Below are positions 30,280 through 31,750 of a stretch of 64,000 nt of DNA, piece by piece; position 1 is the stretch's first letter, and each line of letters starts with the position of its first letter. The notes below the pieces were generated by a model. It saw only the letters and a list, made by a program, of their open reading frames with translations, was not told the DNA's origin and made no database searches. A program made the translations under genes and the position numbers. Origin of the DNA: the human T2T-CHM13v2.0 reference genome, Homo sapiens; contig CP068257.2 of assembly GCA_009914755.4 (NCBI GenBank), positions 17,152,001 to 17,216,000 of the forward strand. Reading direction: 5' to 3'.

Positions 30280-30644
30280 CCCCTTCATTGTTTATGTGTA
30301 TTTTCTGGTCTATATATACTCATTTGAGGCCTTCTAATGACTTTCTCATATAGTGACTTAAACATATATACAGATAGAGAAATGTAGAATAACATGTACA
30401 TAAATATACATATATCAGTTCTCCACAGAGAAACCACTTGCCCTTGAGACAGGAATAGTAACAAATAGTTATTTGAATATGCAAACAGTTAGCACTAAAT
30501 TTATGTTTATTAGGGATTATTGTATTTATTTTTCATATACAGGGATCATAAAAATTGTTACTCAAGTGCATTTTGGTTTATTTCTTAAACGTTAAATATT
30601 TCTTAAATGTATGTGATGCAACAAAACATTAAGATATTGGTAAT

Positions 30645-30681
30645 TGTGATTGCTACTCAGCCTTTTGGCTAATATCAAGTG
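30645..30681 (+). pseudogene. U2 snRNA 5'-end fragment (nt 1-33; 3'-truncated class of snRNA pseudogene) flanked by 14-bp direct repeats
   Basis: 'attgctactcagccttttggctaatatcaagtg' against U2 'atcgcttctcggccttttggctaagatcaagtg' gives 29 of 33 matches, and three of the four mismatches are CpG-type transitions. The flanks are 'aagatattggtaat' at 30631-30644 and 30682-30695. Confidence 0.55.
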
Positions 30682-31750
30682 AAGATATTGGTAATGGTTG
30701 AAACAGAGTGTTGAGTATGTGGGATCACTGTAATATTTTATATATTTTGCATATGTTTGAAGATAATCTTAATAAAATGCTTAAAATATTTTATCTAAAA
30801 GAAAGTACATGTAAAATGACACCGCTGGCGATTTTTTTACTGTCATGGTATAACAAAAAAGATGATGGCAGAAGACAATTCGGTTCACATTAAAATAAAA
30901 TTTTTGCAACGTGTAAGTGAGAAAAAACCTGGTAAAATTTTGAGAGGAATAAGACACTGGAGTATTTATACTGAAGATTGAATGAACAATTAAAATATTC
31001 TAAAGTAGATTTATGAAGAAAGTTAAATATATAGAGACCATGAAAACATTAAAAGTTAATGTTACAAAGCAACAAGATACTGTCAAATTAAATTATAGGA
31101 ATCCTTTCTAATCCACTAAGAGATAAATATTTGAAAATATTCACATGTATCTACAGTCACATAACCAAATTTAAATTAGCTTGCGTCTTCTACTTTCTCA
31201 TTTTGGCCCACTGGTCCATGGTTATTACACACCAGCAGCATTAATTTTGCAGGTAAAATCTCTTAAATTTTCTTTTCAACTTTACTTTCCATTTCCAGGC
31301 CTGTACCCACAGAGACACATGACACAACACTCCTAGTGCTATAGGAACAATGAATACTAAATAGCTGCTATAAATACAGGCATCATAACATCAAATTTAG
31401 TGCCACGTGATTTCAGTTGGTTTTCATATTCTTATGCAACTCACCTCTCTATATATGGCTTCCAGTTTTTAATAAATCCATTGCTATATTTTATGTTTGC
31501 AAAGGGTTATTACAGGTTACCTAACACAGTAGACTGGACTGGAAGGTTAATAACGGATTTGCTTTGCAAAATGTCACACAAATTGATGCAATCAGACAAG
31601 ACAGGCCATGGTCCAAAAGTAATTCATTTATAAAGGTACTAATACTCTAATCAATTCTAATCCAAAAATATCTGAAAATGACATTTGTCCTGTAATCTTG
31701 TGAACATTATGTAGAGTGGAAAAGCCAGCATGGAATGAACAGAGAATTTG

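What the first reader, a model, noticed from the sequence alone, without database searches (positions are those of the whole stretch)
30631..30695. 33-nt U2 snRNA 5' fragment flanked by 14-bp direct repeats: a 3'-truncated snRNA retropseudogene
'attgctactcagccttttggctaatatcaagtg' matches U2 snRNA nt 1-33 at 29 of 33 positions, and three of the four differences are CpG-decay transitions. The copy stops exactly where the flanking repeat 'aagatattggtaat' recurs (30631-30644 and 30682-30695). This resembles the class of U1/U2/U3 pseudogenes that contain only the 5' part of the RNA and carry short flanking direct repeats, proposed to arise from self-primed reverse transcription. It is a very small example and easy to miss.
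Basis: partly seen in the sequence, partly recalled or inferred. Interest (0 to 1): 0.5.

Follow-up and report, generated by a model that had tools for sequence, protein, structure and literature searches.

The report
Truncated U2 snRNA retropseudogene, ordinary
A 33-base dead copy of the start of the U2 spliceosomal RNA was pasted into this primate DNA, most likely by the LINE-1 retrotransposon machinery, and it belongs to a common, well-described class of genomic fossil with no sign of function.

Summary
Window 30649-30681 (+) matches U2 snRNA nt 1-33 at 29 of 33 positions. The next best match in the window is 20 of 33, and about 1e-4 such matches are expected by chance in a 3-Gb genome. Exact 14-nt direct repeats AAGATATTGGTAAT lie at 30631-30644 and 30682-30695.

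There are two corrections. Only two of the four differences are CpG transitions, not three. Four bases, TGTG, separate the 5' repeat from U2 nt 1. Alternatively the repeat is 17 nt with one mismatch, leaving a single extra G.

U2 similarity does not continue on either side, and there is no poly(A). The inferred nick site is TT|AAGA, one of the seven typical LINE-1 endonuclease motifs, and it fits only in the U2-sense orientation.

This matches the "Group III / old Class IV" snRNA pseudogenes of Doucet et al. 2015. In that survey 57 of 58 characterised human U2 copies are 3'-truncated, and 50 of those 57 have target-site duplications. The paper attributes them to LINE-1 reverse transcription starting inside a single-stranded part of the snRNA.

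No orthologous empty site could be retrieved with these tools.

A second, older U2 nt 1-30 fragment lies at 56401-56368 (-). The verdict is a real but ordinary feature of an already known kind.

The parts
30629..30634 (+). Inferred pre-insertion nick site TT|AAGA, equivalent to TCTT/AA on the bottom strand. It is a LINE-1 endonuclease-type target.
   Evidence: Sequence. TTAAGA is one of the seven typical L1 EN motifs (PMC6478352; PMC3167599). Those seven hexamers cover only 0.55% of window positions, and hexamers within one mismatch of TTAAAA cover 1.7%. The opposite orientation gives CC|ATTA, four mismatches from TTAAAA.
30631..30644 (+). 5' copy of the target-site duplication, AAGATATTGGTAAT. 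It can be extended to 30647 as a 17-nt repeat at 16/17 identity.
   Evidence: D1.
30645..30648 (+). TGTG between the 5' duplication and U2 nt 1. It is either 4 nt of extra 5'-junction nucleotides, or 3 nt of a 17-nt duplication carrying one substitution plus a single extra G at 30648.
   Evidence: Sequence; extended repeat. That the G derives from the cap is inference from general knowledge of L1-mediated insertions and was not tested.
30649..30681 (+). U2 snRNA nt 1-33: the 5' end, stem-loop I and the first base of the branch-point recognition sequence. Identity is 29/33, with differences at 30651 (C>T), 30655 (T>A), 30659 (G>A) and 30673 (G>T).
   Evidence: Two of the substitutions break the two basal pairs of stem-loop I, marked 'vv' in the cmscan alignment, as expected for neutral decay.
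30682..30695 (+). 3' copy of the target-site duplication, AAGATATTGGTAAT, extendable to 30698. Reverse transcription was primed at the 30681|30682 junction. Its bases 2-3 (AG) also match U2 nt 35-36, so the U2/target boundary is ambiguous by up to 3 nt.
   Evidence: (AAG aligned to U2 UAG).

Best explanation
This is a dead, heavily 3'-truncated processed pseudogene of U2 snRNA (Group III, old Class IV). It was inserted in the U2-sense orientation on the + strand of a primate genome by the LINE-1 retrotransposition machinery.

Proposed steps:
1. L1 ORF2p endonuclease nicked the bottom strand at 5'-TCTT/AA-3', which is TT|AAGA on the top strand at 30629-30634.
2. The freed 3'-OH (...CCAATATCTT-3') primed reverse transcription on a U2 RNA instead of on L1 RNA ("template choice"). 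Synthesis started at about nt 33-36, in the single-stranded stretch between stem-loop I and stem-loop IIa that holds the branch-point recognition sequence.
3. The cDNA ran to the capped 5' end, nt 1.
4. One to four extra nucleotides were added at the 5' junction.
5. A staggered second-strand cut 14-17 bp away, followed by fill-in, produced the direct repeats.

The copy carries no promoter, no Sm site and no 3' box. It has since decayed, with two CpG transitions and two transversions that disrupt the base of stem-loop I.

What is shown and what is inferred:
- Shown: derivation from U2, a start at nt 1, truncation at nt 33, the target-site duplication, an L1-type target motif, and the absence of poly(A) and of further U2 sequence.
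- Inferred: that L1 ORF2p was the enzyme; that initiation was internal on a full-length U2 rather than on an already shortened U2 fragment (the sequence cannot separate these); and that the extra G reflects the cap.
For: - The window is primate DNA: seven Alu core matches, about ten Alu-derived SRP hits and a CpG observed/expected ratio of 0.17.
- U2 nt 1-33 matches at 29/33, far beyond chance.
- Rfam U2 aligns from model position 1.
- U2 similarity does not continue downstream (local score 18 against a shuffle mean of 18.8) or upstream (18 against 19.1). The insert is therefore the RNA's 5' end alone, without gene flanks.
- An exact 14-nt flanking repeat is seen at 1 of 20,000 random placements. 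It is the only complex repeat of 14 nt or more within 120 nt in the window, apart from microsatellites and four other close repeat pairs.
- The target hexamer TT|AAGA is one of the seven typical L1 EN motifs. Those motifs cover 0.55% of window positions, and the motif is present only in the sense orientation.
- The truncation point lies in a segment that is unpaired in the Rfam consensus structure. RNAfold gives unpaired probabilities of 0.91-0.99 for nt 34-39.
- Doucet et al. 2015 (PMC4476161) report that 57 of 58 characterised human U2 copies are 3'-truncated and that 50 of those have TSDs. Truncations cluster in single-stranded segments and the cleavage sites resemble TTTT/A. The paper proposes L1 template choice with internal initiation.
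- A second, independent U2 nt 1-30 fragment with unrelated flanks lies at 56401-56368 (-) and ends at nearly the same U2 position.
Against: - No orthologous empty site could be obtained. Five scans of public collections with flank patterns returned nothing, so the insertion and its age are inferred from one sequence only.
- Microhomology between the primer end and U2 at the 3' junction is poor. There are 0 contiguous bases, only AG of AAG matches U2 nt 35-36, and the primer's terminal T faces U34. Doucet et al. report enriched junction complementarity.
- The duplication is perfect over 14 nt while the insert differs from U2 at 4 of 33 positions. At the non-CpG rate of 2/29, about 1.9 substitutions are expected in the 28 nt of repeat, so P(0)=0.145. 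This is compatible but slightly odd. It eases if the 17-nt 16/17 reading is right, or if some differences came from the source RNA or the reverse transcriptase.
- Rfam alone does not call this locus at window scale.
- L1 involvement rests on one hexamer and the duplication length.
Confidence: 0.8

Rival explanations
1. Same L1-mediated insertion, but the template was a pre-existing short U2 5' fragment of about nt 1-33 rather than a full-length U2 with internal initiation. The fragment would be a decay or cleavage product ending in the branch-point recognition region, perhaps with one or two added A residues. Any short A tail would pair with the ...CTT-3' primer and would be hidden in the first As of the 3' duplication.
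For: - The primer end does not pair contiguously with U2 nt 34-36. An RNA ending at G33 plus A residues would pair with it.
- Two independent U2 fragments in this window end at nt 30 and nt 33, which could reflect a discrete RNA end.
- Truncated tRNA halves and truncated U3, U5 and 5S pieces recur in L1 chimeras (bioRxiv 10.1101/2025.02.02.635956).
Against: - The final DNA is identical under both models, so nothing in the sequence favours this one.
- Clustering of ends in single-stranded segments is equally predicted by internal priming.
- No evidence was gathered here that a stable U2 1-33 RNA exists.
Confidence: 0.2
2. Self-primed reverse transcription, the mechanism named by the first reader and proposed by Bernstein, Mount and Weiner in 1983 for U3. 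The 3' end of full-length U2 folds back onto nt 34-39 and primes cDNA synthesis of nt 33-1. The short cDNA then integrates at a staggered chromosomal break.
For: With A188 opposite U34, 4 of the first 6 positions can pair, including the terminal one (U34-A188, G36-C186, U37-A185, U39-G183). That register would start copying exactly at G33.
Against: - The register is weak, and 11 of 169 registers along U2 do equally well.
- The best duplex of the 3' tail with nt 30-38 is -5.7 kcal/mol, against -9.5 kcal/mol elsewhere in U2, and it leaves the terminal A unpaired.
- If the RNA ends at C187, the register gives no pairs in the first six positions.
- Self-priming does not explain the L1 EN-type target site found only in the sense orientation.
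- The current literature attributes this class to L1 template choice.
Confidence: 0.06
3. The insertion is not L1-mediated. A U2 cDNA or RNA fragment was captured as filler during repair of a staggered double-strand break. Alternatively, the 33-mer belongs to an uncharacterised interspersed repeat or to a local templated duplication related to the similar stretch at 30554-30584.
For: - There is no poly(A).
- Four unexplained nucleotides sit at the 5' junction.
- 30554-30584 resembles the copy itself at 24/28 plus a 3-nt gap and shares all four derived bases. Its score of 22 is reached by 0.2% of shuffles and 0.6% of other window chunks.
Against: - A 14-17 bp duplication with a TT|AAGA nick site is the signature of L1 EN, not of end joining.
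- The upstream similarity is not significant in a region-level test: 8% of adjacent segment pairs score as high. It also does not resemble canonical U2.
- The flanks 30271-31743 have no paralogue in the window.
- The second U2 fragment at 56.4 kb has unrelated flanks, which argues against a composite repeat family.
Confidence: 0.04
4. The resemblance to U2 and the flanking repeat are both chance.
For: None beyond the AT-rich, low-complexity context.
Against: - 3e-9 matches of this quality are expected in the window and 1.4e-4 in a whole 3.1-Gb genome.
- The flanking repeat is seen at 5e-5 of random placements.
- The match starts exactly at U2 nt 1.
Confidence: 0.001

Closest known systems
Group III (old Class IV) snRNA processed pseudogenes: heavily 3'-truncated, flanked by TSDs (Doucet et al. 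2015, Mol Biol Evol, PMC4476161; earlier Van Arsdell et al. 1981 and Denison & Weiner 1982, as cited there)
   Same: The copy starts at snRNA nt 1 and is 3'-truncated in a single-stranded segment. It has no poly(A) and no associated retrotransposon sequence. Its TSD is 14-17 bp and the target site is L1 EN-like. For U2 this is the dominant form, 57 of 58 characterised copies.
   Different: - At 33 nt it is a short example.
- At 88% identity it would have fallen below that survey's identity filters of 90% generally and 97.5% for U2.
- Junction microhomology is absent or weak.
- It has 1-4 extra nucleotides at the 5' junction.
snRNA/L1 chimeric retro-insertions (Group IV: U6-L1, U3-L1, U5-L1; template switching, RNA ligation or twin priming; PMC4476161, PMC6789731, bioRxiv 10.1101/2025.02.02.635956)
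   Same: Both are made by the L1 machinery, carry TSDs and L1 EN sites, and often have a truncated snRNA part.
   Different: No L1, Alu or mRNA segment and no poly(A) lies between the U2 piece and the 3' TSD, so this is not a chimera.
Tailless tRNA retropseudogenes (Schmitz et al. 2004, as cited in PMC4476161)
   Same: They are small-RNA-derived, 3'-truncated and lack poly(A). They carry TSDs and are proposed to arise by internal priming through pairing of the nicked target with the RNA.
   Different: The source RNA is different.
Self-primed U3 pseudogenes (Bernstein, Mount & Weiner 1983, cited in PMC4476161)
   Same: They hold only the 5' part of the RNA and have short flanking direct repeats.
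   Different: That model needs fold-back pairing of the RNA's own 3' end next to the truncation point. For U2 nt 34-39 this pairing is weak and not distinctive.
Functional U2 snRNA genes (Rfam RF00004; RNU2-1 and RNU2-2)
   Same: The first 33 nt are homologous.
   Different: - The locus scores 22.6 bits against a gathering score of 46.
- It lacks nt 34-188, which hold most of the branch-point recognition sequence, stem-loops II-IV and the Sm site.
- It carries no gene flanks.
- The base of stem-loop I is disrupted.

Membership tests
Group III / Class IV 3'-truncated snRNA processed pseudogene | Colinear with the mature snRNA from its first nucleotide, with significant sequence identity | tested here: met
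   29/33 identity from U2 nt 1. Rfam alignment starts at model position 1. The chance expectation is 3e-9 per window.
Group III / Class IV 3'-truncated snRNA processed pseudogene | Heavily truncated at the 3' end, with no A-rich tail and no attached retrotransposon sequence | tested here: met
   U2 similarity stops at nt 33-36. U2 nt 34-188 against 30682-31100 scores at the shuffle mean. The sequence after nt 33 is the repeat AAGATATTGGTAAT, not poly(A).
Group III / Class IV 3'-truncated snRNA processed pseudogene | No flanking sequence of the snRNA gene, which indicates origin from RNA rather than DNA duplication | tested here: met
   The duplication lies within 1-4 nt of U2 nt 1 and directly at nt 33, leaving no room for promoter or 3'-box sequence. 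Full U2 against 30201-30648 scores at the shuffle mean. U2 gene flanks themselves were not available for comparison.
Group III / Class IV 3'-truncated snRNA processed pseudogene | Flanked by a target-site duplication | tested here: met
   Exact 14-nt repeat, or 17 nt at 16/17 identity. It occurs at 1 of 20,000 random placements.
Group III / Class IV 3'-truncated snRNA processed pseudogene | Insertion at an L1 endonuclease-type cleavage site (TTTT/A-like) | tested here: met
   TT|AAGA at 30629-30634 is one of the seven typical motifs, with a background frequency of 0.55%. The antisense orientation does not fit.
Group III / Class IV 3'-truncated snRNA processed pseudogene | Truncation in a single-stranded, purine-rich segment, with complementarity between the nicked target and the snRNA at the 3' junction | tested here: inconclusive
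   Single-strandedness is met: the Rfam consensus leaves nt 27-46 unpaired, and RNAfold gives unpaired probabilities of 0.91-0.99 for nt 34-39. Complementarity is weak, with only 2 of the first 3-6 positions matching and a terminal mismatch.
Group III / Class IV 3'-truncated snRNA processed pseudogene | Empty pre-insertion site with a single target copy in an outgroup species | not testable with these tools
   No primate genomes are available here. Exact-pattern scans for the flanks found nothing in the metagenome, prokaryotic genome or viral collections.
Functional U2 snRNA gene (Rfam RF00004) | Reaches the family gathering score with full-length structure (stem-loops I-IV, Sm site, branch-point recognition sequence) | tested here: not met
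   It scores 22.6 bits against 46. Only stem-loop I is aligned with confidence and two of its pairs are broken. There are no gathering-level hits in the window.
snRNA/L1 chimera (Group IV) | snRNA segment fused to a LINE, SINE or mRNA 3' segment inside one pair of TSDs | tested here: not met
   Nothing lies between U2 nt 33 and the 3' TSD.
Self-primed snRNA pseudogene (Bernstein 1983 model) | The RNA's 3' end can fold back and pair immediately 3' of the truncation point | tested here: inconclusive
   The A188:U34 register gives 4 of 6 pairs. 11 of 169 registers do as well, and the predicted duplex is weaker than alternatives.

The most novel reading that the evidence does not exclude
The ends of U2 fragments at nt 30-33 are not just a by-product of internal priming. 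Under this reading, the two independent copies in this window would record a discrete cellular U2 5' fragment, cut in or next to the branch-point recognition sequence, that LINE-1 copies preferentially. These tiny pseudogenes would then be a genomic fossil record of snRNA cleavage products, analogous to tRNA halves in L1 chimeras. A still more speculative variant is that the U2-copy-like stretch 95 bp upstream (30554-30584) helped recruit the RNA to this nick by base pairing.
Probability: 0.07. Interest if true: 0.4.

Novelty: already known. Interest (0 to 1): 0.08.

Why it matters
It matters little on its own. It is one more neutral fossil of LINE-1 acting in trans on an abundant nuclear RNA. 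Such copies are useful as markers. A presence/absence comparison across primates would date the event, and the junctions of many such copies show how L1 ORF2p chooses and primes non-L1 templates. This instance adds a clean example with an L1 EN-type site, a cDNA reaching nt 1, possible cap-derived extra nucleotides, and essentially no primer-template microhomology. For annotation, it shows that a 33-nt snRNA fragment escapes Rfam thresholds and can still be demonstrated from sequence statistics and its target-site duplication.

Tried and rejected
- Rfam at gathering thresholds on the whole window gave no hits. At E<=1 on the whole window it listed only Alu/SRP-type and spurious hits, with no U2. 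The covariance model is not sensitive to a 33-nt fragment, and only a narrow search shows it.\n- The long cmscan alignment that stretches U2 to 30772 is an artefact of forcing a global alignment. Local alignment of U2 nt 34-188 downstream scores at the shuffle mean.\n- The search for an orthologous or empty site failed. Exact-pattern scans with TSD-plus-right-flank and left-flank-plus-TSD patterns found 0 hits in metagenome contigs, prokaryotic genome contigs and viral contigs. These collections evidently hold no primate copy of the locus.\n- I tested whether the flanks belong to a repeat with paralogues in the window that could supply an empty site. 30271-31743 has no paralogue.\n- I tested a tandem or local-duplication origin through the upstream look-alike at 30554-30584. 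It is nominally unusual but not at region level, so I treat it as chance.\n- The supplement of Doucet et al. does not list individual U2 truncation positions, so I could not check whether nt 30-36 is a published hot spot.\n- A Pfam scan of ORFs in the neighbouring repeat at 41.8-44.6 kb and around 30.1 kb gave no family, so that repeat stays unidentified.\n- The first literature query was too loose and returned irrelevant papers. A query for Garcia-Perez et al. 2007 found nothing in the library.

Full report
**Context.** The window is primate nuclear DNA. It holds seven matches to the Alu core within three mismatches and about ten Alu-derived sub-threshold SRP hits. G+C is 36% and the CpG observed/expected ratio is 0.17. 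The tools offered no primate genomes, so the evidence is the window itself, Rfam, statistics computed on the window, and the literature.

**Observation.**
- 30631-30644: AAGATATTGGTAAT
- 30645-30648: TGTG
- 30649-30681: ATTGCTACTCAGCCTTTTGGCTAATATCAAGTG
- 30682-30695: AAGATATTGGTAAT
- 30696 onward: GGTTG...

The 33-mer equals human U2 snRNA nt 1-33 (sequence supplied from my own knowledge) at 29 of 33 positions. The next best ungapped match of that 33-mer in the window, on either strand, is 20 of 33. P(>=29/33) is 2.3e-14 per position, so 3e-9 matches are expected in the window and 1.4e-4 in a 3.1-Gb genome. The stretch therefore descends from U2 and is not a chance look-alike.

Other searches agree. 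blastn-short gives E=1.4e-4 and nhmmer gives E=0.0066. The Rfam U2 model aligns from model position 1 with high posterior probability through about nt 36. It reaches only 22.6 bits against a gathering score of 46, with E=0.0076 in a 221-nt search, and neither whole-window Rfam search lists it.

The 14-mer repeat occurs exactly twice in the window. A flanking exact repeat of 14 nt or more is found at 1 of 20,000 random placements of a 33-nt segment. Apart from microsatellites and four other close repeat pairs, it is the only direct repeat of 14 nt or more within 120 nt in the window.

**Corrections to the observation.**
- The four differences are C3>T, T7>A, G11>A and G25>T. Two are CpG transitions and two are transversions, not three of four.
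- Four bases (TGTG) separate the 5' repeat from U2 nt 1.
- The repeat extends to 17 nt at 16/17 identity, AAGATATTGGTAAT[T/G]GT (D1). Under that reading only a single G (30648) precedes U2 nt 1.

At the non-CpG divergence of the insert (2/29), about 1.9 substitutions are expected in a 14-nt repeat pair, so P(0)=0.145. About 2.3 are expected in a 17-nt pair. The 17-nt reading with one substitution is therefore at least as comfortable as the 14-nt reading. A single extra G at the 5' end of full-length L1-mediated insertions is commonly ascribed to copying of the cap. That is my own background knowledge and was not tested here.

**Anatomy.** U2 similarity does not continue. U2 nt 34-188 against 30682-31100, and full U2 against 30201-30648, both score at the mean of shuffled controls. 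The long cmscan alignment reaching 30772 is a forced global alignment with low posterior probability.

There is no A-rich tail, no L1, Alu or mRNA segment inside the duplication, and no room for U2 promoter or 3'-box sequence. No ORF of note overlaps the site. The flanks 30271-31743 have no paralogue in the window.

Two of the four substitutions break the two basal pairs of stem-loop I, as expected for neutral decay.

**Target site and orientation.** With U2 in the sense orientation, the pre-insertion top strand reads CATT|AAGATATT. The hexamer across the inferred first-strand nick is therefore TT|AAGA. TTAAGA is one of the seven typical L1 endonuclease motifs (PMC6478352; also PMC3167599).

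Those seven hexamers occupy 0.55% of window positions, and hexamers within one mismatch of TTAAAA occupy 1.7%. The opposite orientation gives CC|ATTA, four mismatches from TTAAAA. A 14-17 bp duplication together with this motif is the signature of LINE-1 target-primed reverse transcription.

**Mechanism.** The bottom-strand 3'-OH (...CCAATATCTT-3') primed cDNA synthesis on a U2 RNA from about nt 33 back to nt 1. This is inferred. The start lies in the stretch between stem-loop I and stem-loop IIa, which is unpaired in the Rfam consensus. RNAfold gives unpaired probabilities of 0.91-0.99 for nt 34-39.

This is what Doucet et al. 2015 (PMC4476161) describe:
- 65% of characterised human snRNA copies are 3'-truncated. 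For U2 the figure is 57 of 58, and 50 of those have TSDs.
- Truncations cluster in single-stranded, purine-rich segments.
- Cleavage sites resemble TTTT/A, shifted by one or two A residues for U2.
- The proposed mechanism is L1 "template choice" with internal initiation.
- The class is named Group III, the old Class IV.

One feature fits less well. Primer-template complementarity at this junction is poor, with only AG of AAG matching U2 nt 35-36 and the terminal T facing U34. That leaves room for a variant in which the template was an already shortened U2 fragment ending near G33, possibly with one or two added A residues. The final DNA cannot distinguish the two.

With A188 opposite U34, 4 of 6 positions pair, and copying would start exactly at G33. 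However, 11 of 169 registers along U2 do as well. The best predicted duplex of the 3' tail with nt 30-38 is -5.7 kcal/mol, against -9.5 kcal/mol elsewhere, and it leaves the terminal A unpaired. An RNA ending at C187 gives no pairs in the first six positions of that register. Self-priming also does not account for the oriented L1 EN motif. I give it about 6%.

**Other findings bearing on the question.** A second U2 5' fragment lies on the minus strand at 56401-56368: GTCCCTtTCTTGGCCTTTTGGCTAaacAGATCAA. It corresponds to U2 nt 1-30 at 27/30 plus two insertions. The supporting scores are blastn-short 18/19 with E=0.009 and cmscan U2 at 18.6 bits; the sequence is. Its flanks are unrelated to those of the first locus and are unique in the window. 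Only an 8-nt repeat, TGTTCTGA, brackets it at a distance, so no clear TSD survives.

It shows a second, older event ending at almost the same U2 position.

Separately, 30554-30584 resembles the pseudogene copy itself at 24/28 plus a 3-nt gap, and it shares all four derived bases. It does not resemble canonical U2. Its score of 22 is reached by 0.2% of shuffles and 0.6% of other window chunks, but a region-level comparison is unremarkable. After allowing for post hoc selection, I regard it as chance in AT-rich DNA and record it as unexplained.

**What could not be done.** The decisive test is an empty orthologous site, and it was not possible. Flank patterns found nothing in metagenome, prokaryotic genome or viral contigs. 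RepeatMasker/Dfam annotation is not available here. The supplement of Doucet et al. does not list individual U2 truncation points.

**Verdict.** It is a short member of the most common class of U2 pseudogene, most likely made by LINE-1 (confidence 0.8), with no indication of function. The novelty rating is already known, and interest is 0.08.

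Noticed in passing
window 56368-56401 (- strand): A second, more decayed U2 snRNA 5' fragment: GTCCCTtTCTTGGCCTTTTGGCTAaacAGATCAA. It corresponds to U2 nt 1-30 at 27/30 plus two small insertions. Its flanks are unrelated to the first locus and it has no clear TSD, only the 8-nt repeat TGTTCTGA at 56420-56413 and 56344-56337. It ends at nearly the same U2 position as the first copy.
   Followed up: partly
window 30554-30584 (+): ATTGTTACTCAAGTGCATTTTGGTTTATTTC, 95 bp upstream, resembles the pseudogene copy itself at 24/28 plus a 3-nt gap and shares all four of its differences from U2. 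It does not resemble canonical U2. The nominal p is 0.002-0.006, but a region-level test is not significant. It is probably chance in AT-rich DNA.
   Followed up: partly
window 29000-30270 and 41865-44534: Copies of an interspersed repeat in rearranged order and orientation, at 72-89% identity. ORFs in them gave no Pfam match, so the family is not identified. The repeat ends about 360 bp upstream of the U2 insertion and shows no link to it.
   Followed up: partly
window 1173-1453, 4101-4374, 8494-8759, 9391-9676, 20356-20487, 28162-28443, 35647-35930, 37315-37594, 55414-55692, 60578-60860: About ten Alu elements on both strands. They appear as sub-threshold Metazoa_SRP, mir-1268 and mir-3135 hits and as Alu-core pattern matches, which identify the window as primate.
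   Followed up: no
window 4368-4409, 35590-35650, 57436-57475, 59652-59703: Simple repeats and short duplications seen while counting direct repeats: a (CA)n microsatellite, a (TTTTA)n microsatellite, and two short duplications (21 nt at offset 19, and 20 nt at offset 32).
   Followed up: no
window 55877-56011 and 57254-57388: A 135-bp segment repeated at 96% identity about 1.4 kb apart in direct orientation, bracketing the region that holds the second U2 fragment. Its origin was not examined.
   Followed up: no
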